From positions 3,387-67,386 of the forward strand of contig VGWB01000001.1 in assembly GCA_016873755.1 (NCBI GenBank): a DNA stretch of 64,000 nucleotides, written 5' to 3'. The notes below the pieces were generated by a model. That model was not told the origin of the DNA and ran no database searches. It was given only the letters and a program-made list of their open reading frames with translations. Positions 14,252-48,957 of this stretch are shown here, one piece after another. Made by a program: the position numbers and the translations under genes. Source of the stretch: Ignavibacteria bacterium. GTDB taxonomy: Bacteria > Bacteroidota > Ignavibacteria > UBA10030. The first letter of the stretch is position 1. Each line of letters opens with the position of its first letter.

Positions 14252-14465
14252 GGCAGGGGGAGAAACCAGCCTTACCGTTTGAAGTCGAACGATCTCGCTT
14301 GTTCGAAATCACAGCCAGTCACGCCGTCAGACTGTATTTCATGGAGAAAGGGATCTTAAGCTGTGCACCGATGGACTTCACTGATTTTCTCATCACCAGC
14401 TTCAGGAATCCGCGTACTCTTTGTCTTCTGTCAAGAACGTCCAGCATCCAATGCGTGAGGTTCCA

Positions 14466-17400: not shown

Positions 17401-20021
17401 GGACCTACGATCCGGCTGAGCCCTCGCTCGAGTTTCCGCCGGGAAGCAAGAGACACTACCTGTATCTAGGGCAACTGATGGTCGGCGCTGTAACTGCATC
17501 TGGGGATACAATGGCGAATCTTGCCTATTCGGATGAGTTCCTGCCGGTTGCATCCATTGATACCAGGAGGTTCCCCAGCGTGTCGTATAGCGGATTTCGC
17601 TTCCTGATGAAACAGGCGCTGGGGCTGCAAATCGATCAGACCACATATTCCGTGATGAACGAATCGTACCTGTTGATGGGGTACGAAATCTCCAACAAGG
17701 GGATCTTCAAGTTCTCGAACATATACGTCGGATTCTATTGCGACTACGACCTCAACGATGCCGCGAAGAACCTGAGCGGGTACGATAGTGCGAACAGGCT
17801 TGGGTACGTGTTCGATCCGTCAGGCGGGTGGGGCGGATACGCGGGGATTCGGGTGCTCAGTCATACCTCCTCGACATTCCGTCGGTGGAGCGCGACGGTT
17901 CAACCTGAGCCACGAAATCCAGGTGACTTCTATCGGTCGATGGCGAAGCTCGGCAGCGACGATCCGTCGGCCGATCAACCTGCGGACTACCGCGTCCTGC
18001 AATGCGTCGGGCCGGTAACGCTTGCACCGGGAGAATCCGTGGCCTTCGTAGTTGCCGTTGCGGTCGGCGAAGGGTTGAGCGGCCTCCGCAACGCGGTGGA
18101 TCAGGCACAGAAGTTCCACGACATGCTTGTCAGTCCAGCTCCCGGGGTGATAACTGATCCTGCTTCGAACGTGACCTCCAGCTCGGCTAGGCTGAATGCG
18201 ACAGTCGATACGAGGGGACTGAGCACGACTGTGGTGTTCGAGTACGGAACGTCAACGAGCTACGGGAAGCAAGTTACGGCCGCGGGAAGTCCGTTTACTG
18301 CTGCCGACGCCATAACGGTCAGCGCCGATGTCACCGGGCTTACGGGCTCGACGACATATCATTACCGTGTGGTGGCAACGAACTCCGCCGGTACAACGCC
18401 GGGTCGGGACCAATCGTTTGTCACTCTCGCCAGTGGTACGATCGCAGTCACCTCAACACCGACAGTCTGGGCTACCGGCTTCGCGTACCCCGTAACGTGG
18501 ACGAGCAACAATGTCGCGGGCACCGTCACCATCAGGTTGTCGACGAACGGTGGCGCGTCCTATACGACGATCGGCGAATTTGCGAACACCGGTAGCGCCT
18601 CTGTGACGGTTCCAACATCGGCTTCACCTTCTACCAATTGTAAGCTTCGGATCTCGTCCACGCTGAATTCGGCGGTTTTTGGCGAGAGCGGGACGTTCAC
18701 CATTGTCTCCGGCACACGACCCACATCCATCCAGCTCTCCAACACCGTGAGCTTCCCAAGTCAGCCGACCGCGTCGACGGCGTACCGCTTGGTGAGCTTC
18801 CCCGGTGATGTCAGTTCGTTGCGTCTCAACCAGATTCTGAGCGGTACATCGCCGTACGATTGGCGCGTATTCCGAGACAACGGCAACTCGTCGAATTTCC
18901 TCGTTGAGTTCGCAGGAACCTCCACCCTCACAGTCGGTGAGGGATATTGGATGATCAACAAAGGATCGTTCACACTTTCGAGATCAGTGCCAATCGTGAC
19001 GCTCAGCAGCGACGCGAGCGCAAGCATTCCGCTGCATAGCGGTTGGAACATTATCGGCAATCCCTTTGAAAAGAGCGTCACGTGGACGGCGGTGCTGGCC
19101 GCAAATGGAATCTCGCCATCGGTATCAACGCGTATCTTGGACTACAACGGCTCGTACACATCAAGCAACTCGCTCGATCCATATAAGGGTTACTACTACT
19201 TCAATGCTGCCGGCGCGAGCTCGTTGAGGATTCCATATCCTTTTGGAACAAAGATGGAGTCCCCCTTCCAGCTTCCTCCCGTTGACTGGCAACTGAAGGT
19301 CTCCTATGCGTCCGACATCAACGAGGATCCTGAGAATTTCGTAGGCGTCGCCCCGGCGGCAACGGAGGGGTTTGACATGCTCGAAAGCTACAAACCGCCG
19401 TTGTTTATGGATCAAGCATTTGTCTATTTTGAGCGGCCGGAGTGGAATCAAGAGTACAGCTACTTCAGCGGTGACTATCGTCCCTCACTGGGCGATGGGC
19501 AGGTGTGGGATTTCGTCGTCCGCAATCCTCGCAAGTCGACCGGCACGCTGAAATTCTCTGGTGTCGAACAGGTCCCGTCAGACTATGCCATCAGACTGGT
19601 CAATCTCTCGAACGCGCGCCCGGTCGATCTCAGAGAGCAGAACGAGTATTCCTATCGCACGACTGACGTCATTACCAGATTCAAACTCATAATTGGAAAG
19701 CAACAATTCGTGGACCGCGCTCTGGTCGATGTGGTGCCCGAGAGCTTTGAGCTTCTCCAGAACTATCCGAACCCGTTCAACGCCGGAACGACGATCCTCT
19801 TCCGCGTCCCGCGTGAAAGTCGGGTTCAGCTGGATATCGTCTCCATGCTCGGCCAGAAGGTGAAGACGCTCGTAGAGGACTGGCTCGGTGCAGGGACGCA
19901 CTCCGTCACGTGGGATGGAGCAGACGCCGAGGGAAGACCGGTTGCGAGCGGCGTCTATTTCTACCGGCTCAGCTCGGACGGACAGCGCGTTCAAACAAAG
20001 AAACTCACTGTTCTGAAATAA
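14466..20021 (+). CDS. Giant secreted multidomain surface protein, cargo of the type IX secretion system. Domains: BNR/Ycf48-like beta-propeller repeats, a pre-peptidase C-terminal (PPC) domain, fibronectin type III domains and a C-terminal T9SS sorting domain.
   Basis: The signal peptide 'MKSLLIPFVSLSLLGFAEAQ' begins at 14466; in-frame starts also exist at 14421 (TTG) and 14451. Seven ~37-aa repeats of the form 'GTNIFAGTSGGVFLSTNNGTSWTAVNTGLTN' follow, then 'GDVDYFKLN' (PPC). Fibronectin-III-like segments read 'YHYRLVATNSLG' and 'YHYRVVATNSAG'. A second propeller has 'TTDGGxSWT' units. The C-terminus 'LLQNYPNPFNAGTTILF...GVYFYRLSSDGQRVQTKKLTVLK' is a canonical T9SS sorting domain. Confidence 0.85.
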   Translation: MKSLLIPFVSLSLLGFAEAQDLNWERTSGPPSGKVLALAISGTNIFAGASGGGVFLSTNNGTTWIAVNTGLTNLDAGALAVSGTNLFAGTSGGVFLSTNNGTSWTAANNGLTNTNVLALAVSGSNIFAGTFGGVFLSTNNGTSWTAVNTGLTNTIIYALAVSGSNIFAGTYGGGVFRSTNNGTSWTATSSGLTNLYVQAFAVSGTNMFAGTSGGGAVFLSTNNGTSWTAVNTGLTNINVFALAVSGANTFAGTEFGGVNLSMNNGKSWTAVNNGLTNMNVRALAVSGANIFAGTWGDGVFRSSLPASLLPSIPEQEPNNTAGQANQIALGDIVAGSFSVPGDVDYFKLNLAALDTIDLLGSNAAGSTIDAYLKLYDASGNLLEESDDFLSTEASRIICVIPSGGTYYIRYACHPTGGEYPNAVGKKSGAHSNDLSELESVTLLQKSVPALSDTGSYRLIVRRFRPSAPQVRTSGGYNIFHNSAAFDGDFYPNGLPTALTVEYGTTTGYGSMRLLATALDIFGQYCSDELQSLSPNTEYHYRLVATNSLGRSETANESFTTPPAPDGWVRVRTGTTPLLRNVAFANVSLGMAVGGDGLILKTTDGGSSWTPLTSNTYEYLRGIALASPSVALAVGNSGTILRTTDGGTTWISRASGTTLELTDACFSDANTSVVVGNGGSMLRTTDGGVSWNSINSGTTQNFRGVDFGNPSIGIAVGASGTILRTTDGGKSWTLVTSPVPDFLYKVYMVNERVGFVAGAAGILLKTTDGGSSWVRLTSGTDAMLIGISFSDERNGITVGFDHRLLRTKDGGATWANEESGTWNDLYGAVFAGTSAIAVGDHATVLRKDMGPGAAISVQVLSPNGGEFWNEDLGHRIRWQASESSGKTISRIQILYSVDNGAHYSVIFDSVANTGSRIWATPRTPTKDARVRVVAYTPDGASAWDESDAPFTIVDVATYVHHTGVLAHTVRNDGFTGSGGGTYDPAEPSLEFPPGSKRHYLYLGQLMVGAVTASGDTMANLAYSDEFLPVASIDTRRFPSVSYSGFRFLMKQALGLQIDQTTYSVMNESYLLMGYEISNKGIFKFSNIYVGFYCDYDLNDAAKNLSGYDSANRLGYVFDPSGGWGGYAGIRVLSHTSSTFRRWSATVQPEPRNPGDFYRSMAKLGSDDPSADQPADYRVLQCVGPVTLAPGESVAFVVAVAVGEGLSGLRNAVDQAQKFHDMLVSPAPGVITDPASNVTSSSARLNATVDTRGLSTTVVFEYGTSTSYGKQVTAAGSPFTAADAITVSADVTGLTGSTTYHYRVVATNSAGTTPGRDQSFVTLASGTIAVTSTPTVWATGFAYPVTWTSNNVAGTVTIRLSTNGGASYTTIGEFANTGSASVTVPTSASPSTNCKLRISSTLNSAVFGESGTFTIVSGTRPTSIQLSNTVSFPSQPTASTAYRLVSFPGDVSSLRLNQILSGTSPYDWRVFRDNGNSSNFLVEFAGTSTLTVGEGYWMINKGSFTLSRSVPIVTLSSDASASIPLHSGWNIIGNPFEKSVTWTAVLAANGISPSVSTRILDYNGSYTSSNSLDPYKGYYYFNAAGASSLRIPYPFGTKMESPFQLPPVDWQLKVSYASDINEDPENFVGVAPAATEGFDMLESYKPPLFMDQAFVYFERPEWNQEYSYFSGDYRPSLGDGQVWDFVVRNPRKSTGTLKFSGVEQVPSDYAIRLVNLSNARPVDLREQNEYSYRTTDVITRFKLIIGKQQFVDRALVDVVPESFELLQNYPNPFNAGTTILFRVPRESRVQLDIVSMLGQKVKTLVEDWLGAGTHSVTWDGADAEGRPVASGVYFYRLSSDGQRVQTKKLTVLK
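14570..15360. repeat. Intragenic tandem array of ~111-bp near-identical DNA repeats, about 7 units encoding 37-aa propeller-blade repeats
   Basis: Long, nearly identical stretches recur at 111-bp spacing, e.g. 'ctttgcggggacgtctggtggtgtttttctttccacgaacaacggaacaagctggac...'. Confidence 0.8.
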
Positions 20022-20031
20022 AGGAACTGCA

Positions 20032-20580
20032 ATGAGGATCTCTCGCGTATATCGGTATCGACGGCAGGTAATCGCAGGCCTCATTCTTCCACTGCTCATC
20101 TGGTGCGTGAATTCAACAGCGTTCGCGGCACCGGCGCCGCAGGATGAACTCAGGATTACTATCAAGGCGGTGGAAGTGAAGCCGGACTACATCATCGTCT
20201 CGTACGAGCTGGTGGCCCCTGCTGCGGACTCCTACGAAGTGAGCCTGGTCCTCCTGAGAGAGGGAAGCTCCTCCTTCAGAATCCCTGTGCGCGCTGCGTC
20301 CGGAGACATCGGAGAGGGGAAATTCGCCGGCGGTGTTCGGCAGGTGCGCTGGGAGTTTGGTAAGGACTATCCGCGCGGTCTCTCCGGGGAGGGTTTCTAT
20401 TTCGAGATCTCAGTCAGTAAAGTGAAAAGCAGTAACCTCTTGTTGTACGTCGGTCTCGGCGGCCTTGCAGCAGTTGGTGGGGCCGTGGCACTCTTAGCAG
20501 GTGGTAAGAAAAGCGAAGGCACAACGTCGACGCCGTCCCCGGCCGAACTGCCGATGCCACCCGCGCGTCCGACGAACTAG
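20032..20580 (+). CDS. Small single-pass membrane protein of unknown function: signal/anchor, ~110-aa extracytoplasmic domain, C-terminal transmembrane helix, Pro-rich tail
   Basis: It starts 10 nt after the giant gene stop. The N-terminal hydrophobic segment is 'VIAGLILPLLIWCVNSTAFA'. The C-terminal transmembrane helix is 'LLLYVGLGGLAAVGGAVALLAGG', followed by KK. Confidence 0.5.
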   Translation: MRISRVYRYRRQVIAGLILPLLIWCVNSTAFAAPAPQDELRITIKAVEVKPDYIIVSYELVAPAADSYEVSLVLLREGSSSFRIPVRAASGDIGEGKFAGGVRQVRWEFGKDYPRGLSGEGFYFEISVSKVKSSNLLLYVGLGGLAAVGGAVALLAGGKKSEGTTSTPSPAELPMPPARPTN

Positions 20581-20675
20581 GCATCTGACCGAAAGCTAGG
20601 ACTTCGCGTTCTAGCGGTGGGTGTATGAATGTTCTCTTCAGATCGCTTCTGCATTCTAGAGGGAGGAAATTCCCG

Positions 20676-23003
20676 ATGAGAACCCTTACAACGGTTTTGG
20701 TCTGTTTGGTGTTGCTCGCACAGACCGTACAGGGCCAGGTGAAGGCGAGGAGCCAAACGTTCTCAATCCAGCCCCCTGCCCGGCCTGCATCGCTGAGCGC
20801 TACGGCCGAGTTCAGTGAGCCGTCAGGAAACGGCTACCTGGATGCCGGCGAGAAAGGCACAATTAACGTGACCGTTGCCAACTCCGGCGGCACGGCTGCA
20901 AAAAATGTTGTGGCGAGGCTCAGTGCCGAAGGGAGCACTCCAGGCCTGGTGTTGACCGACCGAGTCACAATAGGCGAGATCGCCTCAAATGCGTCCGGGA
21001 CCGGAATGATCGAAGTGACGGCGCTGGGGACGGTGCAGACCGGACTTTTGAAGTTCACCGTGGAGGTTGTGGCAGACAACAACGTCAAAGCGGAACCGAA
21101 ATCCCTGAGCTTCTCGACACTCGCTGCTGCCGCGCCCGCGACGCTTGCTGTGACAGTCGAGTTCTCGGAGCCGTCGGGCAACAAGCTTCTTGATGCAGGG
21201 GAAAAAGGAACGATCAAGGTCACCGTATCGAATACGGGGGGCAGTACGGCGAAGAACGTCTTGGCGAAGCTCAGTTCTGCTGCTACGGCAGTTGGCATCG
21301 ACTTCTCAAAATCCGTGACGATCGGCGATGTTGCTCCCAGCAGCACACGAGCCGGCCAGTTTGAAGTATCGGCCTTTGACTACGTCCAGAGTCAAACGTT
21401 TTCTTTGACGGTTGAGGTGAGCGCCGACAATGGAGTCAAGGCAGATCCCCGGCCCGTCTCCTTCTCGACCCGCGCAGCTGTTAGGCCGGCCATCCTCGCG
21501 GCGACCGTCCAGTTCTCCGAGCCGTCGGGGAACGGAATCCTTGATCCGGGCGAGACAGGGACAGTGACTGTATCGATTACGAACACGGGAGGAACACCGG
21601 CCAAGGGTGTCATCGTAAGGGCGAAGACGCAAGTCGATGTCAGCGGCGTGACGTTTCCGGCAGTCGTGCAGGTAGGGGACATCGCCCCCACTGCTTCAGG
21701 CACAGCGAGGATTCCGGTCCAGGCTTCGGAGACGGTGCGCTCACAGACGATCTCGCTTACCCTTGAAGCGGCGGATGCCGGAGGCATTGCGGCCGAAGCG
21801 AAGACACTGGCTATCACAACGAGGGAAAGGGTGTTGGCCCGAGACACGGCGCCTCCCGACATCGAAGTCTGGGAACCCGTTGTCACCGCGTCCCGCGGTG
21901 TGAAGATTGTTCCAAGTGATTCAAAGTTTGCGACGCAGAGCTCTTCTGTCATTGTGAGGGGCATCGCGAAAGATACCAGCGGTGTCGCTGTCGTGACCAT
22001 TAACGGCCAGGAGGCAAGACTCTCAACGGGAGCGGAAGGATTCGAATTTGTCGGAGAGGCGCTGCTCGTCCTTGGCGAGAATGACGTTGAGGTGCGAGCC
22101 CTCGATCGGTTCAAAAATGAGAACAAGCTCACGTTTAGGGTCACGAGGAATCCCGAGACCCTCGCAGAAAGGAGACAAATCCCGGCAGCCCTGTTCAAAG
22201 GGCAGCGATGGGCCGTTATCGTCGGCATCTCGAGATACCGCTCGACGGATATCCCGCAGCTTCGGTATGCCGACCAGGATGCCCAGGAGTTCTACAAAAT
22301 CATGACCAAATCGATCGAGGAGGGAGGAGTGGGAGTGCCGAAAAGCAATGTCCGATTTCTCCTCAACGATCAGGCGACTTCGACGAATGTCCGAGAGGCG
22401 CTCACCGATTTCCTGAAGCTTGCCATCGAGGATGACTACGTTTTTATCTACTTCGCGGGACACGGAGCACCGGACCCGGATCGCCCCAAGATTCTCTATC
22501 TTCTCACGCACGATTCGGATTTGAACCGCCTTGCCGCCACATCGGTGAAAATGCAGGAGATTCAGGACGCTCTCCGGGACTACGTTGCTGCGAAGACCGT
22601 GCTTGTCTTTGCCGACGCCTGTCACAGCCGAGGCGTCACTGGAGCTGTGGCGACGAGGGCCCTTGCTCCTCCGGAGCTCGTCAACGACTTTCTCTCTGAA
22701 CTTGCCCGGGCGCGCGCAAGCACGATGACCTTCAGCGCAAGCGACGTGAACCAGCTCTCGCAAGAGGATAAGCGCTGGGGAGGTGGCCACGGCGTGTTTA
22801 CCTGGTATCTGCTTGAGGGACTACGTGGTAAAGCCGACCTGAACAGCGATCAGATGGTGCGGTTGGGAGAGCTCACCCAATTCGTCAGCGACAATGTTCG
22901 GCGCGACACGAGATCGCAGCAGAGCCCGATCTCCAGCGGGAATTTTGACATCAACTTGCCCCTCACCATCGTGACGGATAGACCGTCTCCAGAAAAACGC
23001 TGA
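20676..23003 (+). CDS. Secreted caspase-like cysteine peptidase (peptidase C14, metacaspase/orthocaspase type) with four N-terminal ~115-aa repeat domains, possibly CARDB-like
   Basis: RBS GGGAGG, then the signal peptide 'MRTLTTVLVCLVLLAQTVQG'. The unit 'AEFSEPSGNGYLDAGEKGTINVTVANSGGTAAKNV...' recurs four times. The C-terminal domain has 'RWAVIVGISRY', the catalytic His in 'IYFAGHGAPD' and the catalytic Cys in 'VFADACHSRG', the metacaspase D-A-C-H-S motif. Confidence 0.8.
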   Translation: MRTLTTVLVCLVLLAQTVQGQVKARSQTFSIQPPARPASLSATAEFSEPSGNGYLDAGEKGTINVTVANSGGTAAKNVVARLSAEGSTPGLVLTDRVTIGEIASNASGTGMIEVTALGTVQTGLLKFTVEVVADNNVKAEPKSLSFSTLAAAAPATLAVTVEFSEPSGNKLLDAGEKGTIKVTVSNTGGSTAKNVLAKLSSAATAVGIDFSKSVTIGDVAPSSTRAGQFEVSAFDYVQSQTFSLTVEVSADNGVKADPRPVSFSTRAAVRPAILAATVQFSEPSGNGILDPGETGTVTVSITNTGGTPAKGVIVRAKTQVDVSGVTFPAVVQVGDIAPTASGTARIPVQASETVRSQTISLTLEAADAGGIAAEAKTLAITTRERVLARDTAPPDIEVWEPVVTASRGVKIVPSDSKFATQSSSVIVRGIAKDTSGVAVVTINGQEARLSTGAEGFEFVGEALLVLGENDVEVRALDRFKNENKLTFRVTRNPETLAERRQIPAALFKGQRWAVIVGISRYRSTDIPQLRYADQDAQEFYKIMTKSIEEGGVGVPKSNVRFLLNDQATSTNVREALTDFLKLAIEDDYVFIYFAGHGAPDPDRPKILYLLTHDSDLNRLAATSVKMQEIQDALRDYVAAKTVLVFADACHSRGVTGAVATRALAPPELVNDFLSELARARASTMTFSASDVNQLSQEDKRWGGGHGVFTWYLLEGLRGKADLNSDQMVRLGELTQFVSDNVRRDTRSQQSPISSGNFDINLPLTIVTDRPSPEKR

Positions 23004-23039
23004 GGATCTGCCGTCGGCAATCGATCCGGAGATTTCCGG

Positions 23040-24704
23040 ATGCCGCCTGGCGGGAAAGGTACTATGATCCTATCATCGTCGATCAGGTTTCGCACTCTTC
23101 TTCTGGGCATCGCAGCAACTGCTGTGCTCTCCGCTCCCGCCCGGCCTCAGGTTCTCGCCCCACCGCGTGCGCTGAGGGTGCAGATCTCAGTGAATCACCC
23201 GAATCTGGTGTATCGTGAAGGTGATACTCTGCGAGTGTCGGTCACCGCGAACAAAAACTGCTACCTTCGGCTCATGTACTGCGAGGCGAGTGGAAAGGAC
23301 GTGGTCATCTTCCCGAACTACCAGGACATGGACGACAAAGTTCAGGGCGGGGTCGAGTACGTCATCCCGACGAAGTTCCAGATAACGCAGCCGCTGGGGA
23401 GCGAAGCTCTGCATGCGTTCGTAAGTTCGGAGAAGTTCTCGACGCTGGACGGCCTCGATCGTGGCGATGGCCTGATCGTGTTGAAAGAGCCCATAGAGAG
23501 GGTGCTCACGAAGCTGAGGTCAGGCGGGATTTTTGGGGAATATGCGGAACAGAGGTTGGAGATCATCACGAGGGCAAAGGAAGTCGCTGCATCCGAGGCA
23601 CCACAAATCAAACCGCCTTGGATTGAACTCGTACAGCCGGGTCCGAGCGATTTTCTTGTCGATCAGCGAGATACGGTCACGATCGAGGGTCTTGTGACAG
23701 GGGATGATCTTGTTACGCCCGTCCTCATCAACGGGAAACCCGTTCAGACGGAGAAGATCTCCTCAGGCCTGCAATTCAGTCTCTCGGTGGGATTGGTGGT
23801 GGGCGAAAACACGTTCGAGGTCGTCGCGAGGAATGCTCATCATCAAACGACGACGAAGTCCCTGGTAGTTAAGAGGGCAGAGAACAGGTTCGCTGGAAAG
23901 CGGTGGGCAGTAGTGATCGGGATCAGCGAGTACAAACATCCTGAGATCCACGACCTGAAGTATGCACATCGCGACGCGGAGGCGTTCTACGAGTTCTTGA
24001 AGAGCGCCAATGGGGGAGCGTTCGCCGACGATCATACCTTGCTCCTCACAGACGCAAAAGCCACAAAGGCGAACGTGCGGAGCGCGGTCTTCGACTTCTT
24101 GAAGCAGACGAGCGAGGAAGATCTGGTGATGATCTACTTCTCCGGACACGGTCTGAGCAGAGGCAAAGGATACTCCTACTTTGTGACACACGACAGTGAT
24201 CCGTACCGAATGGAAGAGACAGCGTTTGACATGGAAGATATCCAGGCCGCGCTGCGAAAGACGATCCAGGCGGAACGCGTGGTGATCTTCGCGGACGCGT
24301 GCTACAGTGGTGCAATCAATGACTATGTCAAAGGGACCCGAACAACTCAGCTCGAAGAGAATCTGATCAACCGATATTTGTCCGAGATGGCAAAGGCCAA
24401 GCCGGGCATCGTCTCTGTGACCTCGTGCGCCGAGAACGAAGTCTCGGGAGAAGCCTGGCTCTTCTGGGAGCACGGAGTGTTTACGTTCGTTCTCATTTCT
24501 GGTTTGGGAGGGAAGATCATTGATACTGAAGGACGAGTGAAGACGTTTGAAAGCGCCGACGCGGACGGGGACGGGATTGTCACTGTCAGCGAGCTTACTC
24601 AATATGTTACAAAGTATGTCCCGGGATATACCAAGAACAAGCAGAATCCCCAGGTTAGCAAATCCAATTTCGATCCAAATACTCCTCTGAGTGTTATTCG
24701 CTAA
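23040..24704 (+). CDS. Second secreted caspase-like cysteine peptidase (C14), with an N-terminal DUF4384-like domain
   Basis: The signal peptide is 'MILSSSIRFRTLLLGIAATAVLSA'. The N-terminal domain 'LRVQISVNHPNLVYREGDTLRVSVTANKNCYLRLMY' resembles the DUF4384 domain often found with caspase-like proteins; this is unverified. The C14 domain has 'RWAVVIGISEY', the His in 'IYFSGHGLS' and the Cys in 'IFADACYSGA'. Confidence 0.75.
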   Translation: MPPGGKGTMILSSSIRFRTLLLGIAATAVLSAPARPQVLAPPRALRVQISVNHPNLVYREGDTLRVSVTANKNCYLRLMYCEASGKDVVIFPNYQDMDDKVQGGVEYVIPTKFQITQPLGSEALHAFVSSEKFSTLDGLDRGDGLIVLKEPIERVLTKLRSGGIFGEYAEQRLEIITRAKEVAASEAPQIKPPWIELVQPGPSDFLVDQRDTVTIEGLVTGDDLVTPVLINGKPVQTEKISSGLQFSLSVGLVVGENTFEVVARNAHHQTTTKSLVVKRAENRFAGKRWAVVIGISEYKHPEIHDLKYAHRDAEAFYEFLKSANGGAFADDHTLLLTDAKATKANVRSAVFDFLKQTSEEDLVMIYFSGHGLSRGKGYSYFVTHDSDPYRMEETAFDMEDIQAALRKTIQAERVVIFADACYSGAINDYVKGTRTTQLEENLINRYLSEMAKAKPGIVSVTSCAENEVSGEAWLFWEHGVFTFVLISGLGGKIIDTEGRVKTFESADADGDGIVTVSELTQYVTKYVPGYTKNKQNPQVSKSNFDPNTPLSVIR

Positions 24705-41751: not shown

Positions 41752-41830
41752 TGCGGATCCCGAGACAATCCGTGTTCAAGAAACAATCCTTCTATCAGAT
41801 AAGAGTTACACCGTGTTGAGGAGCTTAACC

Positions 41831-43387
41831 ATGTCAACGAAATCTGTCGTCGTAGCAATTTTGCTGATCTCCCTTGGTATTGTCCTTGGCGTGACGCTTG
41901 TGTCGACGTTCAAGGGTGTCGATATGAGCTTCGCGACACAAGATGTCAAGATCGGGGCGCAATCGAAATCTTCGAATGCACATCCGGCTCTGAAGGCGTT
42001 GAACGAAGCATACCAGTCAATCGCGAAGGAGGTCACGCCGACCGTTGTGTACATCACCGTTGTGTCACGATCTCGGTCAGACGACCAGAGCGATAGCTGG
42101 TTCCGGTTTTTCGGACCGGATTTCCGCATTGAACCTCGGACTCCTCGTCCGGAGGTTGGAGCGGGATCCGGTGTGATCCTTACATCCGACGGCTACATAC
42201 TGACAAACAACCACGTTGTCGGCAACGCGGTGTCCGACGGAATCGAGGTCACCCTCTCTGACAAACGAGTGTTCAAGAACGCCAAGCTGATCGGTACAGA
42301 CAAGTACACGGACCTCGCGGTGATCAAAGTGAATGCGAAGGACCTGGTGACCCCGCGCCTTGGGAACTCGGACGAGGTTGAGGTTGGCCAGATCGCGTTC
42401 GCATTCGGGAATCCGTTGGGATTGACGTCAACGATGACCCAAGGGATTATCAGCGCGACAGGACGAGGCCAGCTCGGCATCATAGCGGGCGAACTGAGGG
42501 ATCGGGATGATGCCAGTTACTCGATAGAGAATTTCATACAGACCGACGCTGCGGTCAACCCGGGCAACAGCGGTGGCGCACTCGTGAACATTAATGGTGA
42601 GGTAATCGGAATCAACACCGCGATCGCAACCACGAACGCACGCTTTCAGGGATACAGTTTCGCGATCCCCATCAACCTCGCGAAGAAAGTGGCAACGGAT
42701 CTTATCAAGTATGGGAAAGTACGGCGGGGATACATCGGTGTTGTGATTGAGACAGTGGACGCCACGATGGCCAAGGCGAAAGGGCTCGACAAACCAACGG
42801 GTGTCCTGGTACAGCGAGTGAACGCTGGCAGTGCGGGGGAGGCGGCTGGTGTCAAAGCAGGGGACATCATCTTGACCGTCGATGGAAGGGAAGTCAAAAC
42901 GTCCAATGAATTGCAGACGATTGTCGCTGCGAAGTACCCCGGCGAGACGGTCACGCTCAAGATTCTCCGCGACGGGAAGATGGTTGAGAAGAAAGTTGTG
43001 CTGAAGGCCCGCGACGAAGACGAGGAAGCTGTGGCGTCGGCTGACACCAAAAGAGAACCGAGCAAGCCAAGGGAGGCAGCCGGCCCAAGCCGGCTCGAGC
43101 TCGAAGACCTCGGGATGACTGTGAGGAACCTGGACTCAGACCTGAAGAAGAGCTATGAGACTGAGTCCGGAGTCCTCGTTGAAAGCGTCAAACCTCTCAG
43201 CGAGGCTCAGAAGAGACAGCTGAGACCAAACGATGTCATCCTGAGTGTTGGTGAACAGCCGGTAACTTCTGTCTCCCAGTTCGAGCAGTCTCTGAGGAAG
43301 AAGAACCCCGGCGACGCTGTGCTCATGCGGGTGAAAGGCGCCGACAAATCGACGCGATTCGTCGCGGTTGAAATCCCTCAGAAATAG
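41831..43387 (+). CDS. htrA: Periplasmic serine endoprotease DegP/HtrA (Do family) with two PDZ domains
   Basis: Signal/anchor 'MSTKSVVVAILLISLGIVLG'. Catalytic-triad motifs 'TNNHVV', 'DLAVIKV' and 'GNSGGALVN' are present. An alternative ATG lies at 41813. Confidence 0.85.
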   Translation: MSTKSVVVAILLISLGIVLGVTLVSTFKGVDMSFATQDVKIGAQSKSSNAHPALKALNEAYQSIAKEVTPTVVYITVVSRSRSDDQSDSWFRFFGPDFRIEPRTPRPEVGAGSGVILTSDGYILTNNHVVGNAVSDGIEVTLSDKRVFKNAKLIGTDKYTDLAVIKVNAKDLVTPRLGNSDEVEVGQIAFAFGNPLGLTSTMTQGIISATGRGQLGIIAGELRDRDDASYSIENFIQTDAAVNPGNSGGALVNINGEVIGINTAIATTNARFQGYSFAIPINLAKKVATDLIKYGKVRRGYIGVVIETVDATMAKAKGLDKPTGVLVQRVNAGSAGEAAGVKAGDIILTVDGREVKTSNELQTIVAAKYPGETVTLKILRDGKMVEKKVVLKARDEDEEAVASADTKREPSKPREAAGPSRLELEDLGMTVRNLDSDLKKSYETESGVLVESVKPLSEAQKRQLRPNDVILSVGEQPVTSVSQFEQSLRKKNPGDAVLMRVKGADKSTRFVAVEIPQK

Positions 43388-43411
43388 TGAGTTGTTGCCT
43401 TCAGTGGGCTT

Positions 43412-43470
43412 GCGGGGCGCAGGACCCTTCCGCACAGGCGGGAGAGCCTTGCGCCTTTGTCGTTTCTTTT
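43412..43470 (+). terminator. Probable intrinsic terminator after htrA
   Basis: A two-tier GC-rich hairpin (GGGGCGCAGG ... CCTTGCGCC with an inner CCGC/GCGG stem) followed by the T-rich run TTTGTCGTTTCTTTT. Confidence 0.35.
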
Positions 43471-43725
43471 CCGGTCGCCCTTGTAACCGGCCACCGTTTG
43501 ATACGGTTCAGTCAGCCGTAGAAATCCACCGCCTTTGGCCGTGGCTATGGACGGTTGGCTTTGCCGTTTGCATTGCTGACTCACCCCGCGTCCTCCTCTC
43601 TTCCGACCAAAAGAGGGGGAGTAAGGGGGTGAGTTGAGACGGAGACTTGTTGACGTTCCTGTTTTTCAAAAGCCACCAGCTATGGTGGTGGTTGTTTACT
43701 TTGTGCTCACGCCTCTTGCCTCGAC

Positions 43726-44623
43726 ATGGAGAGCACCGCAATTCGCTTCATAACAGCTGGTGAATCAGATGCTCGGACATCTGTGGGCATCGTGGAGGGA
43801 ATGCCGGCGGGAATCTCGATTTCAGCGGGCTACATCAACCATCAGATCCAGCGGCTGCAGAAGGCCCACGGGCTCGACGCTGGAGCGAAGGTCGCTCCCC
43901 CTGCGGTCGAAGTACTCTCGGGCATGAAATCTGGCAAGACCCTCGGCTCTCCAATCGCACTCCGGTGCATACAAAGTCACCGAGCAGGCGGATCTATCCT
44001 CTGTTCGGATTCTTGACAACGCGTACGAAGGTCGAATGCTCGAGCAGATGGATAGGCAGAAGAGGGTTGGCCGCCCGATGCCTGGCACGTTTGAACTCTT
44101 GGTTACGGGTGTGCCCGCCGGGCTGGCCGGCGGAATCCGGATCGGCGGTAGGCTCAATGAACTTCTGGTTGGAGCGCTGAGGTCTGTTCCCGGAGTGCAC
44201 TCAGTTAAGATCAGGTCTGGATTCCGTGGCGTCGAACCGTTCACCCTCGAGGCACGAGAAGCTCTTGCGCAGCGAGTTGCCAGCGGGAACCGCCGATATG
44301 ATCGCGTAGACGCGTCGAAAGTCGGTGCAACGCATGGGAAGCTCATCGTCATCAACGCGAAGACGCAGGCAATGTCATCGCCCGAACGAGATCTGGCTCC
44401 AGATCATCAAGGGAGGCGTAAGCCGCTCAAGGGATCTGTCCAGGGACCGTCTATACGCACCGTGCCGGCTTTTTCCGTACTTGCGGAGGCGGTGATTTCT
44501 CCTGTCCTCGCGAACGCATTTCTTGAGAAATTCCGCGGAAGCTCAGTAAGCGAAATCCGCAGCCAATACAAGCGGTCGGAACGTTTGAAGCAGCCTCCGC
44601 GGGTGAAAAACCCGCATTTGTAA
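43726..44623 (+). pseudogene. Degenerate chorismate synthase (aroC)-like gene: shortened, frame-broken and with active-site motifs eroded
   Basis: Two adjacent ORFs resemble AroC across their length. Fragment 1: 'FITAGESDARTSVGIVEGMPAGISI...VEVLSGMKSGKTLGSPIAL', versus E. coli '[24 protein letters not shown]...VKILSGVFEGVTTGTSIGL'. Fragment 2: 'VTGVPAGLAGGIRIGGRLNELLVGALRSVPGVHSVKIRSGF', versus '[39 protein letters not shown]', and the C-terminal 'GPSIRTVPAFSVLAEAVISPVLANAFL'. A stop at 44014-44016 breaks the frame and about 60 aa are missing. Confidence 0.35.
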
Positions 44624-44775
44624 GCGTACCTAATGAGATGGAAGCTCCGATGACGTGGGCTCGGACTCGAGGTGCTGACTGACGTCGGGACTGAAGGAAT
44701 TCCTTGGCATGCGGTCGGGGTGGGATGGCAGGAGCGTGAGGGCGGGATTTTCCCCAATTTCTCCCTTTTCTCACC

Positions 44776-44804
44776 TTGACTCTCTCTGGTGAATATGCTA
44801 TATT
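44776..44804 (+). promoter_or_regulatory. Consensus sigma70-type promoter TTGACT-N17-TATATT
   Basis: TTGACT at 44776-44781, a 17-nt spacer, then TATATT at 44799-44804. It lies about 95-120 nt upstream of the HNH-endonuclease gene, in an AT-rich patch. Confidence 0.5.
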
Positions 44805-44898
44805 TTGCAAGGAGTAACCACGAAATCTTCAAGTAAACTGTTCAATTTAGGCAGCTCTTTTGCCGACTTAAGGGGGTGCTTCAGACTTCAGCGCAGCA

Positions 44899-45429
44899 GT
44901 GTCATCCGTGGGTTCAAACGGAAGAATGAACCGTAAGGTGCTCGTGTTGAACCACAACTACGAGCCTCTCAGCGTCTGCAACATCAAGAAAGCTGTCGTC
45001 CTTCTCTACCTCGGAAAAGCCGAGTTGATCGAAGCCTCTGACGGTAGATTTCTGCATTCCGTGTCGATGACGATGCCGTTTCCGAGCATCGTTCGCCTTT
45101 CTGTCTACGTTCGAGTCCCCTACAAGAAAATCGTTCTGTCAAGGAAGAATATTCTGCGGCGCGATGGGCATAGATGTCAATACTGTGGTCGGGGGGATGT
45201 CCCATTAACGGTGGATCATGTTGTGCCGAAGGCGCGCGGTGGCGAGGATGCATGGGAGAATCTGGTGTGTGCCTGTGTGAGGTGCAACAACAAGAAAGGG
45301 GACCGACTCCCCAGCGAAGCCCAGATGAGTCTTATCCGAAGGCCCATCCGGCCCAATCACGTTATGTTCATTCGGGATTTCGTCGGCAGCGTAGATGACC
45401 GATGGAAGCCCTATTTGTATATGAATTGA
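44899..45429 (+). CDS. HNH endonuclease family protein
   Basis: 'RRDGHRCQYCGR...LTVDHVVPKARGG...WENLVCACVRCNNKKG' is an HNH motif with a Zn-finger Cys quartet. The N-terminal 'VLVLNHNYEPLSV' region is conserved. An alternative start lies at 44926. Confidence 0.8.
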   Translation: MSSVGSNGRMNRKVLVLNHNYEPLSVCNIKKAVVLLYLGKAELIEASDGRFLHSVSMTMPFPSIVRLSVYVRVPYKKIVLSRKNILRRDGHRCQYCGRGDVPLTVDHVVPKARGGEDAWENLVCACVRCNNKKGDRLPSEAQMSLIRRPIRPNHVMFIRDFVGSVDDRWKPYLYMN

Positions 45430-47424: not shown

Positions 47425-48957
47425 ATGGCTGAAACCATAACAACAACGGAAACCACCGTTCTTCAGGTTCCTACCACGCTGAGAAGCCTGATCGAAGCAT
47501 TGTTCTTCGCTGCGCGCGAGCCGCTTTCGGTCAAGCAGATCCAGACGATCTATGAGTACCAGGGTCTGAACGGAGAGTCGCGTCAACTTGAACCGACTGA
47601 TGTGATCCGAGTCGTCGACGAGCTCAATGCCGAATACGACGCGGCAGATAAGCCGTATCGCATTATCCAGATCGCCGGCGGATATCAGTTTGCGACGCTC
47701 CCCGTTTACGCGGAATGGCTCGCCAAGCTCTACAAGGAGCAGACCCGCAGGAAGCTCTCGCAATCATCAATCGAAACGCTCGCGATTGTCGCCTACAAGC
47801 AACCGATCACCAAACCCGAGATCGAATCCATACGCGGCGTCAACTGCGACTATGTCCTGAAGACTCTTCTCGAGAAGGAACTCGTGACGATCGTCGGCCG
47901 CGCCACGACAGTCGGACGTCCGTTGCTCTATGGAACCACCAAGGAGTTTCTCAAGCACTTCGGTCTCAACGATCTGACAGACCTGCCACGTCCGCGTGAG
48001 ATTCAGGAGATCCTTGGCGAGAGCCAGTTTGAGACCGAGCGCCGGATGCTTGAGGCTCAGCAGGGAGTGCTGGAGAAAAAGGAGGAGGACTTCAGATCAA
48101 GACTGCCGCACATTCCCAAAAGAAAGCCAGGTCTCGATGAGGAAGTGAAAATCATACCGAGGAAGAGAATTCGCGAGATCAAGGTGCGGGAGGGTGATGG
48201 CGAATCGGCTGGCTCACGGGCAAAAGAGGAGTTGCACCATGTTGAACCGGACGTGACGACAGAGCCGGTGTCGACAGAGGGTGCGGCGACGGCTGATTCC
48301 GTCTCGCTCGAGCCTGTTCCGCCTTCCGACGCTCTCCCGACCACCGATGGCATCGTCGTCTTCGGACAAGAAGAGCAAATCCCCGAGCAGACGCTGCCCC
48401 CACAGGAAGAGGTCGGATTTGATACGATGAATCTTTTGGGCACCCGACCGGAGAGGCTGGCAGAACCCGAAGAGGACGCGGCGCAACAGGAGGTGGCTCC
48501 GGCACCCGATGTCGGCTCCTCATTCGAGGCCGCACAACTTGAGGATTCCGAGCTGCCGGCAGAAGAGCCGGGAGTGTTTACCCCGCCCGAGGTTGAACTG
48601 ACCGAAACGGAAACCACAGAAAGCCACCTTGAGGTAGAGGGGGGAGTGGAATCGGCACCAGCCCCGTCCGATGAGATGGAACAGCCCTCGATTGACGAAC
48701 CTCAAGAGCTTGGGTCGCGGGAAGGAGCGAGCATTCCAGACACGCAGGTGGGGATTGCCGAATTTGAGAAAACGCAGCCTGACGTATCTTCAGGCGCTGT
48801 CCCTCAAACCTCCACTGGAAGTTCGATCCAGAAAGAGGAACCGCAAATCCCCGTGCCGGACGCAACCACGGTCCGGCCTACCATTCCCCAGCCAAAGTCC
48901 CGATGGCACACGTGGAAAGAGAAGATCCAAGGGTTCATCAGGAAGCTCTTCGGCTGA
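47425..48957 (+). CDS. scpB: Segregation and condensation protein B with a ~300-aa acidic, Pro/Glu-rich, low-complexity C-terminal extension
   Basis: The first ~200 aa are ScpB-like winged helices, 'LIEALFFAAREPLSVKQIQTI'. The remainder is low-complexity, 'EEPGVFTPPEVELTETETTESHLEVEGGVESAPAP...'. Confidence 0.8.
   Translation: MAETITTTETTVLQVPTTLRSLIEALFFAAREPLSVKQIQTIYEYQGLNGESRQLEPTDVIRVVDELNAEYDAADKPYRIIQIAGGYQFATLPVYAEWLAKLYKEQTRRKLSQSSIETLAIVAYKQPITKPEIESIRGVNCDYVLKTLLEKELVTIVGRATTVGRPLLYGTTKEFLKHFGLNDLTDLPRPREIQEILGESQFETERRMLEAQQGVLEKKEEDFRSRLPHIPKRKPGLDEEVKIIPRKRIREIKVREGDGESAGSRAKEELHHVEPDVTTEPVSTEGAATADSVSLEPVPPSDALPTTDGIVVFGQEEQIPEQTLPPQEEVGFDTMNLLGTRPERLAEPEEDAAQQEVAPAPDVGSSFEAAQLEDSELPAEEPGVFTPPEVELTETETTESHLEVEGGVESAPAPSDEMEQPSIDEPQELGSREGASIPDTQVGIAEFEKTQPDVSSGAVPQTSTGSSIQKEEPQIPVPDATTVRPTIPQPKSRWHTWKEKIQGFIRKLFG

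What the first reader, a model, noticed from the sequence alone, without database searches (positions are those of the whole stretch)
43388..44898. Eroded chorismate synthase gene between htrA and an HNH endonuclease gene
Two adjacent ORFs (43726-44016 and 44036-44623) align along their length with AroC: the G-ES-G...G-IV-G-P-GI N-terminus, 'SGVPAGLG...A(L)[15 protein letters not shown]', and the C-terminal helix. The invariant motifs are mutated (ESHG to ESDA), the RPGHAD region is lost, the protein is ~60 aa short and the frame is broken. The remnant lies in a 1.5-kb stretch of poorer coding quality. The adjacent AT-rich segment carries a textbook TTGACT-N17-TATATT promoter. Either a dispensable or duplicated aroC is decaying here, or this is a diverged non-enzymatic paralog. 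In the first case, aromatic amino acid prototrophy would require another copy.
Basis: partly seen in the sequence, partly recalled or inferred. Interest (0 to 1): 0.5.

Follow-up and report, generated by a model that had tools for sequence, protein, structure and literature searches.

The report
Broken remnant of chorismate synthase gene
This is the wreck of the bacterium's own chorismate synthase gene (aroC), a step needed to make aromatic amino acids: it lost its catalytic residues long ago, persisted for a while as a weakly conserved 'dead enzyme', and in this lake population has now been cut in two by a deletion, yet public annotation still calls both pieces chorismate synthase.

Summary
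ORF1 (43726-44016) and ORF2 (44036-44623) match the N-terminal and C-terminal parts of chorismate synthase (PF01264, E 2.5e-13 and 2.9e-8).

The break is real: the same 96 + 195 aa split is on at least 9 contigs from independent Lake Tanganyika assemblies.

It is not a duplicate. About 50 Ignavibacteria loci carry an intact 386-392 aa aroC in exactly this slot (htrA-aroC-HNH-trpS-scpAB).

Only one sister lineage (73% identity) shares the degenerate form. One strain there has a single open 343-codon frame; another has a nonsense codon.

Both lineages lack the catalytic His and Asp and the Arg-rich motif, so catalysis was lost before they split.

Decay has not been purely neutral. Omega is 0.40, against 0.61-1.32 in neutral simulation and 0.07 in neighbouring genes. 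It is 0.34 in the fold core and 0.80 in the former active-site loops.

In this window a 188-bp frameshifting deletion removes 63 core codons, and a second deletion removes the native stop codon.

Verdict: a genuine, late-stage pseudogene of the ancestral aroC that passed through a dead-enzyme phase. It is ordinary in kind and modest in interest. Whether the organism is auxotrophic could not be tested.

The parts
41813..43387 (+). htrA/degP-type serine protease gene (upstream neighbour, intact)
   Evidence: TIGR02037 Do-family endopeptidase 418 bits (cut-off 416.2); Trypsin_2 plus two PDZ domains. Omega 0.067 against the sister lineage.
43415..43472 (+). Hairpin followed by a T-rich run: likely intrinsic terminator of htrA
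   Evidence: Folds to about -29 to -31 kcal/mol. The same hairpin is present after htrA in L088, where it folds with z -3.4 (84% identity over 43393-43455). The consensus scanner did not flag it, so the terminator role is an inference.
43456..43699 (+). 244 nt present only in this lineage, between the htrA terminator and the aroC remnant. Contains a strong hairpin (about 43573-43642) and a terminator-like hairpin (43671-43693).
   Evidence: L088 has 7 nt where the window has 244. There are no other copies in the window or in any fetched locus. Hairpin folding z-scores are -2.5 and -2.3. The terminator-like site was found by the scanner. Rfam gave only chance-level hits.
43726..44016 (+). ORF1: N-terminal remnant of aroC. 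The homologous part is 43738-43962; the last 17 codons are out-of-frame read-through after the deletion junction.
   Evidence: PF01264 positions 1-74, E 2.5e-13. 58% identical to residues 2-75 of intact AroC P0003. GESHG has become GESDA.
43961..43964 (+). Junction of a net 188-nt deletion that shifts the frame by +1
   Evidence: L001 positions 438-627 (190 nt) correspond to 2 nt here. The deletion removes residues 72-134 of the sister-lineage protein. In its model these form core helix 82-99, strand 103-111 and helix 120-130, with block pLDDT 82-96.
43964..44623 (+). C-terminal remnant of aroC. Homology in this frame starts at 43964; the mechanical ORF2 starts at the ATG at 44036; the stop codon is at 44621-44623.
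   Evidence: PF01264 positions 173-327, E 2.9e-8. 39% identical to residues 181-389 of P0003. In 1QXO numbering: N251 is P, K311 is Q, R337 is G, D339 is S.
44574..44634 (+). 3' junction: a net 175-nt loss relative to the sister lineage that removed the native stop codon, so the frame reads on for about 16 unrelated codons
   Evidence: L001 positions 1232-1467 (236 nt) correspond to 61 nt here.
44776..44804 (+). Sigma-70-like promoter TTGACT-N17-TATATT of the HNH gene (not of the remnant)
   Evidence: Scores 10 of 12 with a TG extension. The core CTTGACTCTC...TGCTATATTTT is conserved upstream of the HNH gene in most related loci.
44805..44925 (+). Conserved leader / possible N-terminal extension of the HNH gene, with an SD-like AAGGGGGTG (44870-44878) and an invariant CTTCAG (44886-44891)
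   Evidence: In 72 of 72 distinct upstream sequences the TTC is in frame with the HNH coding sequence, with no intervening stop. RNAalifold finds only an invariant GGAG:CUUC pairing. See the items noticed in passing.
44926..45429 (+). HNH endonuclease gene (downstream neighbour, intact). The annotated start is the ATG at 44926; the ORF listing gives an in-frame GTG at 44899.
   Evidence: PF01844 and PF14279. 98% identical to the sister lineage and 93% to L005, which is more conserved than TrpS at 84%.

Best explanation
Window 43726-44623 is a pseudogene: the broken remnant of this Ignavibacteria lineage's own ancestral chorismate synthase gene, still sitting in its conserved slot (htrA-aroC-HNH-trpS-scpA-scpB).

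Inferred order of events:
1. Before this Lake Tanganyika population and one sister population diverged, the protein lost its catalytic apparatus. This covers the first invariant His, the Arg-rich EPSP-phosphate motif, and the equivalents of Asn251, Lys311, Arg337 and the active-site base Asp339. In the sister lineage an in-frame loss of about 48 residues also removed RPGHAD/His110. The reading frame stayed open throughout.
2. The dead protein then evolved about 4-5 times faster than normal, but still under purifying selection. That selection was concentrated on the fold core and was nearly absent on the former active-site loops. This fits an expressed, folded but non-catalytic relic.
3. Constraint has recently lapsed in both lineages. 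Here, a 188-bp deletion removed 63 core codons and shifted the frame. A second deletion took away the native stop codon. In addition, 244 bp containing hairpins now separate the gene from the htrA terminator. In the sister population a nonsense allele segregates.

What is shown: the homology, the synteny, the lesions and their reproducibility, the loss of motifs, and the selection statistics.

What is inferred: the order of events, that the relic had some non-catalytic benefit (or that its misfolding was costly), and that the two ORFs here no longer do anything.
For: Homology.

Positional orthology: intact 386-392 aa aroC lies between htrA and the HNH gene in L003-L007. The same holds in about 54 genome loci and in more than 25 metagenome loci, including another Lake Tanganyika species, L114.

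Nearest relatives:
- Only P0001/L001 (73% identity, one 343-codon frame) is close. All other hits in a 5.8-billion-protein search are at most 38% identical.
- No GTDB species-representative genome exceeds 43%.

The lesions are real: the 96 + 195 aa pair occurs on at least 9 contigs from JGI samples 3300020074, 3300020083, 3300020084 and 3300020222 and from Logan SRR7979708 and SRR7989281, at 99.9-100% DNA identity. These are Lake Tanganyika metagenomes.

An independent lesion exists in the sister lineage: GAG to TAG at codon 230 in L088.

Loss of catalysis:
- Of 140 columns that are at least 98% invariant in 116 intact AroCs, the window keeps 52, lacks 33 and has changed 55.
- 46 of 153 conserved columns are changed identically in both lineages.
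- The roles of His110 and Asp339 are described in PMC3509576.

Not neutral:
- Omega is 0.40, against about 0.07 for 13 neighbouring genes.
- A neutral GTR simulation gives 0.91 (range 0.61-1.32); 0 of 2000 runs were as low as observed.
- Total divergence is 0.171, against 0.321 at the neighbours' 4-fold sites.
- Omega is 0.34 in the core and 0.80 in the former active-site loops, with equal dS.
- Neutral drift to the observed amino-acid divergence would leave no stop codon in only about 0.3% of runs.

Recent relaxation: L001 and L088 differ at 12 of 1044 nt in the remnant (7 nonsynonymous including a stop, 3 synonymous). They differ at 5 of 2583 nt in four neighbouring genes.

The 188-nt deletion removes the best-modelled core elements.
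Against: - Omega is clearly below 1, and both pieces are still open for 96 and 195 codons. A residual function of the fragments is therefore not excluded.
- There are no expression data.
- Only two lineages carry the degenerate form, so the timing rests on one pairwise comparison plus outgroups.
- NG86 is a simple estimator.
- The core-versus-loop partition was taken from an AlphaFold model built on an alignment of intact AroCs, which makes it partly circular.
- The rest of the genome was not seen, so the reason aroC became dispensable is unknown. It could be auxotrophy or replacement by another gene.
Confidence: 0.75

Rival explanations
1. The AroC-derived protein is a functional non-enzymatic protein (a pseudoenzyme) that is still in use. 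It would act as a single 343-aa protein in the sister lineage and as two separately translated pieces, or one of them, in this genome.
For: Purifying selection since the two lineages split: omega 0.40, with 0 of 2000 neutral simulations as low. The fold core is more constrained than the loops. The frame has stayed open despite about 60% amino-acid divergence from intact AroC. The sister protein models as a chorismate-synthase-like core, with pTM 0.80 and TM about 0.7 to 1q1l.
Against: The deletion here removes 63 residues of the best-folded core. The sister population carries a nonsense allele, and its recent changes look unconstrained, at 7 nonsynonymous to 3 synonymous. No other members of such a family exist among 5.8 billion protein clusters. 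No promoter-like site lies upstream, and a terminator-like hairpin sits 33 nt before ORF1.
Confidence: 0.1
2. It is a plain, long-dead pseudogene that has drifted neutrally ever since aroC became dispensable.
For: All catalytic signatures are gone. There are multiple deletions and an insertion. It is the fastest-evolving coding-like sequence in the neighbourhood.
Against: Omega is 0.40, against a neutral expectation of 0.61-1.32. Third-position share of differences is 0.52, against 0.33 expected. Total divergence is half the neutral rate. The sister copy has 343 open codons, although 5-6 stops would be expected.
Confidence: 0.08
3. The ancestral aroC became dispensable because another chorismate synthase elsewhere in the genome took over (a xenolog or a distant paralog). 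The organism would then remain prototrophic. This concerns the cause and is compatible with the pseudogene verdict.
For: There is only indirect support. Chorismate also feeds folate and quinone synthesis, so complete loss is costly. This is established pathway knowledge and was not tested here.
Against: No second aroC lies in the 64-kb window (tblastn). After a replacement one would expect fast neutral decay rather than a long phase at omega of about 0.4. The rest of the genome was not available.
Confidence: 0.2
4. The frame break is an assembly or sequencing artefact, or is bypassed by programmed +1 frameshifting, so that a single protein is made.
For: Both frames are open across 43928-44014, so a +1 shift anywhere in that stretch would fuse the two ORFs.
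Against: The structure is identical on at least 9 contigs from independent samples and assemblers. The lesion is a 188-nt deletion, not a homopolymer error. There is no slippery motif at CTC-C-GGT. Even a fused product would lack 63 core residues and all catalytic residues.
Confidence: 0.02

Closest known systems
Chorismate synthase AroC (EC 4.2.3.5; Pfam PF01264, NCBIfam TIGR00033), as in the Ignavibacteria orthologs P0003, P0011 and P0083
   Same: Clear sequence homology over both remnant pieces. Same genomic slot between htrA and the HNH-trpS-scpAB genes. Same fold predicted for the less eroded sister copy.
   Different: About 110 residues are missing and the frame is broken. Scores are 55 and 35 bits against the equivalog cut-off of 212. 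Both invariant His, the active-site Asp, the Arg-rich motif and the FMN-loop residues are lost.
Unitary pseudogenes of biosynthetic genes in bacteria that have become nutritionally dependent (for example reductive evolution in host-restricted pathogens; general knowledge, not tested here)
   Same: A single-copy ancestral gene disabled in place by deletions, a frameshift or a nonsense codon. Different lesions occur in related strains. The flanking genes are intact.
   Different: Here the loss of catalysis predates the disabling lesions by a long interval in which the frame was kept open and the fold core stayed under selection. The rest of the 64-kb window looks gene-dense, and no other broken gene was noticed; this was not checked systematically.
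Pseudoenzymes (catalytically dead homologs kept by selection)
   Same: Catalytic residues are lost while the fold is retained and omega stays below 1, in the interval before the break and perhaps still in the sister lineage.
   Different: No function is known. The form is confined to two closely related populations. It is already broken here and carries a nonsense allele in the sister population.

Membership tests
Chorismate synthase (functional AroC) | Significant match to the family profile | tested here: met
   PF01264 scores 49.9 and 33.2 bits against a cut-off of 27. The NCBIfam equivalog cut-off is not reached: TIGR00033 scores 55.2 and 34.8 against 212.2.
Chorismate synthase (functional AroC) | One uninterrupted reading frame of about 350-400 codons covering the whole domain | tested here: not met
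   There are two frames of 96 and 195 codons. Profile positions 75-172 are absent, and a 188-nt deletion shifts the frame.
Chorismate synthase (functional AroC) | The two invariant active-site histidines (His10 and His110 in S. pneumoniae numbering) | tested here: not met
   GESHG is GESDA, and the RPGHAD segment is deleted. The roles of these residues are described in PMC3509576.
Chorismate synthase (functional AroC) | Invariant active-site aspartate in the R-S-D motif (Asp339), with Arg337 | tested here: not met
   R-S-D is G-P-S in the window and D-P-S in the sister lineage.
Chorismate synthase (functional AroC) | Arg-rich RRQxGYGRGxRM substrate-phosphate motif and FMN-loop residues (Asn251, Lys311) | tested here: not met
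   The motif reads QRLQKAHGLDAGAKV. N251 is P and K311 is Q.
Pseudogene of the positional ortholog | Homolog of a functional gene at the orthologous position | tested here: met
   Intact aroC occupies the same slot in about 50 or more related loci.
Pseudogene of the positional ortholog | Disabling lesions that are real rather than artefacts | tested here: met
   The lesions are the 188-nt frameshifting deletion and the loss of the native stop codon. They are reproduced on at least 9 contigs from independent assemblies.
Pseudogene of the positional ortholog | Neutral evolution (omega of about 1) | tested here: inconclusive
   The average since the split is 0.40, which is not neutral. Omega is 0.80 in the former active-site loops. 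Recent strain differences in the sister lineage are 7 nonsynonymous to 3 synonymous. The period after the deletion cannot be isolated.
Pseudogene of the positional ortholog | No functional product (no expression or activity) | not testable with these tools
   This needs metatranscriptomes, metaproteomes or biochemistry.
Pseudoenzyme (dead enzyme retained by selection) | Catalytic residues lost while purifying selection and an intact frame persist | tested here: inconclusive
   This holds for the shared history and for sister copy L001: 343 open codons and omega 0.34 in the core. It does not hold in this window, where the frame is broken and 63 core residues are deleted.

The most novel reading that the evidence does not exclude
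The aroC of this Ignavibacteria clade was not simply lost. It was converted into a lineage-specific non-catalytic protein that kept the chorismate-synthase fold for some other role. That protein would still be functional as a 343-aa product in the sister population, and only very recently abandoned, or split into still-useful pieces, in the Lake Tanganyika population.
Probability: 0.2. Interest if true: 0.5.

Novelty: new member of a known kind. Interest (0 to 1): 0.3.

Why it matters
Practical consequences:
- NCBI names both fragments 'chorismate synthase' (MBM4159489.1 and MBM4159490.1), and both pass the Pfam threshold.
- Automated metabolic reconstruction of this MAG would therefore score the last step of the shikimate pathway as present, although the gene cannot work.
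- If no other copy exists, the organism depends on its community for aromatic amino acids and for other chorismate-derived compounds.

Evolutionary point: the locus is a dated snapshot of gene death in three stages, namely loss of catalysis, a long weakly constrained dead-enzyme phase, and then independent disabling lesions in sister populations. This is useful as an example but is not surprising in kind.

Tried and rejected
- **RNA searches.** Rfam at gathering threshold on the whole window found nothing. A permissive search of 43300-45000 gave only chance-level eukaryotic or archaeal hits. There are no tRNA or tmRNA genes.
- **Second aroC in the window.** tblastn with two intact AroCs found none. 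Pfam scans of 20 further ORFs found no aromatic-pathway genes.
- **Exact look-up of the 176-aa HNH product.** The version starting at the GTG at 44899 is not on record.
- **GTDB species-representative genomes.** The best match is 43% identical. No genome of this species or its sister was found, so the rest of the shikimate pathway could not be examined.
- **Metagenome contig scans.** The first scan, with a remnant-specific alignment, matched 352 stretches but confirmed none. This is odd, because the window's own contigs should match.
- **The 244-nt lineage-specific insert.** It has no other copies, so there is no evidence that it is a mobile or repeated element.
- **An antisense gene as the source of constraint.** The antisense shadow frame gives a similar omega, as expected when third codon positions coincide, but it carries 3-5 stop codons. 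Rejected.
- **Programmed frameshift.** There is no slippery site, and a fused product would still lack the core. Rejected.
- **RNA structure in the HNH leader.** RNAalifold gave only four invariant pairs and no covariation.
- **Literature.** Nothing was found on inactive chorismate synthase homologs or on aromatic auxotrophy in Ignavibacteria.
Full report
**What is in the sequence**

Between the stop of a Do/HtrA-type protease gene (41813-43387) and an HNH endonuclease gene (44926-45429) lie two ORFs on the + strand. They are 43726-44016 (96 aa, frame 1) and 44036-44623 (195 aa, frame 2).

- ORF1 matches Pfam Chorismate_synt PF01264 at profile positions 1-74 (E 2.5e-13).
- ORF2 matches positions 173-327 (E 2.9e-8).
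- Both are above the gathering score of 27 bits.
- Both are far below the NCBIfam equivalog cut-off: TIGR00033 scores 55 and 35 bits against 212.

Against solved structures, the two pieces align colinearly with Aquifex chorismate synthase 1q1l. ORF1 covers residues 8-82 and ORF2 covers residues 217-392.

tblastn with an intact relative (P0003, 392 aa) places its residues 2-75 at 43741-43962 and residues 181-389 at 43949-44575. About 110 central residues therefore have no counterpart.

**It is the ancestral gene, not a duplicate**

A search of 5.8 billion protein clusters found only one close relative: P0001, 343 aa and 73% identical. Everything else is a normal AroC of about 391 aa from Ignavibacteria or Bacteroidota at 38% identity or less.

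The contigs carrying intact AroCs P0011, P0003 and P0083 have the gene order NUDIX-PfkB-MtnA-RecO-HtrA-AroC-HNH-TrpS-ScpA-ScpB-RluB-MalQ. This is the order in the window, with the remnant in the AroC slot.

The same arrangement recurs in about 54 loci from species-representative genomes and in more than 25 metagenome loci. One of these, L114, is from a different Ignavibacteria species in Lake Tanganyika.

Against the nearest intact relative, L005:
- HtrA is 70% identical.
- TrpS is 84% identical.
- The HNH protein is 93% identical.
- The remnant is only 56% (N-terminal part) and 40% (C-terminal part) identical.

**The break is real**

The window corresponds to JGI contig Ga0194125_10001110. 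The exact 96-aa and 195-aa products are on at least 9 contigs. These come from JGI samples 3300020074, 3300020083, 3300020084 and 3300020222 and from two independent Logan assemblies (SRR7979708, SRR7989281). They are 99.9-100% identical to the window at the DNA level across the region. The JGI samples are Lake Tanganyika metagenomes (PMC8245535).

NCBI holds both fragments as 'MAG: chorismate synthase [Ignavibacteria bacterium]', MBM4159489.1 and MBM4159490.1.

**Anatomy of the lesions**

The sister lineage is represented by L001 and L088 (ENA assemblies ERZ27250457 and ERZ27250473). It has the same neighbours at 86-98% protein identity, except ScpB at 75% over its full length. Alignment with it shows four differences in the window:

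1. A net 188-nt deletion at 43961/43964 (L001 positions 438-627). It removes residues 72-134 of the sister protein and shifts the frame.
2. A net 175-nt loss at 44574-44634. It removes the native stop codon, so the frame runs on for about 16 unrelated codons.
3. A 6-nt in-frame indel.
4. An extra 244 nt (43456-43699) between the conserved htrA terminator-like hairpin (43415-43472) and the start of the remnant. This segment holds two further hairpins, one of them terminator-like at 43671-43693.

In the sister lineage, L001 has one open frame of 343 codons. The nearly identical strain L088 has GAG to TAG at codon 230. The two lineages therefore carry independent disabling lesions.

**Catalysis was lost before the lineages split**

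I aligned 116 intact AroCs and took the 140 columns that are at least 98% invariant.
- The window keeps 52 of them, lacks 33 and has changed 55.
- L001 keeps 64, lacks 21 and has changed 55.

Of 153 columns that are at least 90% conserved and present in both lineages, 46 carry the same derived residue in both.

Shared losses include:
- RRQxGYGRGGRM has become QRLQKAHGLDAG.KV.
- R-S-D has become (G/D)-P-S.

In S. pneumoniae numbering, N251 is P, K311 is Q, R337 is G and D339 is S in the window (alignment). The first invariant His is Asp in the window and Glu in L001.

The RPGHAD/His110 and SARETA segments are missing from both. In L001 this is an in-frame loss of about 48 residues. Whether the window's ancestor had the same loss cannot be told, because the 188-nt deletion covers that site.

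The review PMC3509576 describes His110 as the flavin N1 proton donor. It describes the invariant Asp as the active-site base, whose mutation lowers activity 300-600 fold. Neither copy can be a chorismate synthase.

**The decay has not been purely neutral**

Comparing the window with the sister lineage:

| Measure | Remnant | Neighbouring genes |
|---|---|---|
| dS | 0.35 | 0.15-0.87 |
| dN | 0.14 | 0.01-0.08 in 13 genes |
| omega | 0.40 | mostly 0.04-0.16 |

ScpB, which has a low-complexity tail, is the exception among neighbours at omega 0.30.

I built a neutral null from a GTR spectrum estimated at 2429 four-fold sites of 15 neighbouring genes.
- It gives an NG86 omega of 0.91 (95% range 0.61-1.32). 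None of 2000 simulations reached 0.40.
- Differences fall 52% at third codon positions, against 33% expected and a maximum of 48% in simulation.
- Total divergence is 0.171, against 0.321 at the neighbours' four-fold sites.

The antisense shadow frame gives a similar omega, as it must when third positions coincide, but it contains stop codons.

Splitting the codons by an AlphaFold model of P0001 (pTM 0.80; best PDB matches are chorismate synthases at TM about 0.7) gives:
- omega 0.34 for the modelled core;
- omega 0.80 for the two low-confidence segments that were the FMN/EPSP loops;
- equal dS in both partitions.

This partition is partly circular, because the model rests on an alignment of intact AroCs.

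Kimura protein distances give an AroC/HtrA ratio of 0.6-1.06 among intact lineages. The ratio is 3.3 between the window and the sister lineage, and about 4.8 on the stem leading to both. The acceleration is therefore old and roughly steady.

I also simulated neutral drift of an intact aroC to an amino-acid p-distance of 0.47-0.56. This produces 4.8-5.8 stop codons and leaves the frame open in only about 0.3% of runs, before counting indels. Yet L001 is open for 343 codons. Selection must have kept the frame open after catalysis was lost.

**Constraint has recently lapsed**

L001 and L088 differ at 5 of 2583 nt in four neighbouring genes. They differ at 12 of 1044 nt in the remnant: 7 nonsynonymous changes (including the stop codon) and 3 synonymous.

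In the window, the 188-nt deletion removes helix 82-99, strand 103-111 and helix 120-130 of the model. These are its most confident core elements, with block pLDDT 82-96. Any product could not adopt the fold.

Polarised amino-acid changes are symmetric: 9 derived in the window and 8 derived in L001. This suggests the deletion is recent relative to the split.

No sigma-70-like site precedes ORF1. The only such site in 43300-45000 is the HNH promoter.

**Interpretation**

The best-supported reading is a late-stage pseudogene of the positional aroC ortholog that passed through a long dead-enzyme phase.

Why a dead protein was kept is unknown. The two candidates are a non-catalytic role of the fold and selection against misfolding of an expressed product. 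Both are inferences.

Why aroC became dispensable is also open. The window has no second aroC and no other aromatic-pathway gene. The genome of this species was not available.

**Comparison with what is known, and novelty**

This is a member of the chorismate synthase family by descent but fails every functional criterion tested. Pseudogenes of biosynthetic genes are a well-known kind. The intermediate 'catalytically dead but constrained' stage is a mildly interesting variant, and no literature on an inactive AroC lineage was found.

The practical point is annotation. Both fragments pass Pfam and are named chorismate synthase in public records, so pathway-completeness tools will be misled.

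**Side observation: the HNH gene**

- The TTGACT-N17-TATATT site (44776-44804) is the conserved promoter of the HNH gene.
- Downstream of it is a conserved leader ending in AGGAGG(TG)-N4-9-CTTCAG.
- In 72 of 72 distinct upstream sequences, the TTC of this motif is in frame with the HNH coding sequence. It lies 36, 39, 42, 63 or 66 nt upstream of the annotated start, with no stop codon in between.
- The codon two positions before TTC is a stop codon in 26 of 72 sequences. The codon immediately before TTC is always GNC.
- The annotated start position is ATG in only 19 of 72 sequences, and is not a start codon at all in 19.
- Some homologs do have canonical starts immediately before this F-S motif, for example MVFSA and MLVFSA.
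- RNAalifold finds only an invariant GGAG:CUUC pairing, and Rfam finds nothing.

Where translation of this very conserved gene starts is unexplained.

Noticed in passing
window 44776-44925 (and the HNH-upstream regions of L003-L134): The HNH gene has a strongly conserved sigma-70-like promoter and a conserved leader ending in AGGAGG(TG)-N4-9-CTTCAG. In 72 of 72 distinct sequences the TTC is in frame with the HNH coding sequence, 36-66 nt upstream of the annotated start, with no stop in between. The codon two positions before TTC is a stop in 26 of 72. The annotated start codon is ATG in only 19 of 72 and is not a start codon in 19. The real start site, and whether initiation is non-canonical, is unexplained. 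A strong SD-like element is unexpected if Ignavibacteria resemble Bacteroidota in rarely using SD sequences (from memory, not checked here).
   Followed up: partly
window 44926-45429: The 167-aa HNH protein (named McrA-like by JGI) is more conserved across Ignavibacteria than the adjacent tryptophanyl-tRNA synthetase: 93% against 84% identity to L005. It always sits just upstream of trpS-scpA-scpB, which suggests a housekeeping role rather than a mobile or defence nuclease.
   Followed up: partly
window 43456-43699: A 244-nt segment is absent from the sister lineage. It carries a strong imperfect hairpin (about 43573-43642, -34 kcal/mol, z -2.5) and a terminator-like hairpin (43671-43693). There are no other copies in the window or in the fetched loci. 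Its origin is unknown.
   Followed up: partly
L001 1258-1467 / L088 11033-11245: The sister lineage has about 175 nt more after the remnant's stop codon than the window has. This stretch includes GC-rich inverted repeats (GTCCCGACAGAGACAGCGACTGTGTCGGGAGG; CCCGCCCG...CGGGCGGGGGCGGG). It was not characterised.
   Followed up: no
NCBI proteins MBM4159489.1 and MBM4159490.1 (window 43726-44016 and 44036-44623): Both fragments are deposited as 'chorismate synthase' with no pseudogene flag visible in the names returned. This is a likely source of false pathway completeness.
   Followed up: yes
L006 4426-5843 compared with L007 4308-5843: In NCBI assembly GCA_001802215.1 the htrA gene is called as two ORFs (329 aa with no Pfam hit, plus a 143-aa PDZ piece). 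The near-identical ENA contig has one 511-aa gene. Conversely, L007 lacks an HNH gene call although tblastn finds the gene. These are probably assembly or gene-calling differences.
   Followed up: no
window 47425-48957: ScpB here is 510 aa, with a long acidic, low-complexity C-terminal extension. It has the highest omega among the intact neighbours (0.30) and only 75% identity to the sister lineage.
   Followed up: no
window 14421-24704: There is a very large ORF (1866 aa, 14421-20021, not scanned). It is followed by two tandem genes for caspase-domain (Peptidase_C14) proteins with CARDB, DUF4384 and Glucodextran_B domains (20625-23003 and 23040-24704).
   Followed up: no
Metagenome-contig scan with alignment A3: The scan matched 352 stretches to remnant-specific peptide patterns, but tblastn confirmed none. 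The window's own JGI contigs should have matched. This is possibly a tool or confirmation quirk rather than biology.
   Followed up: no
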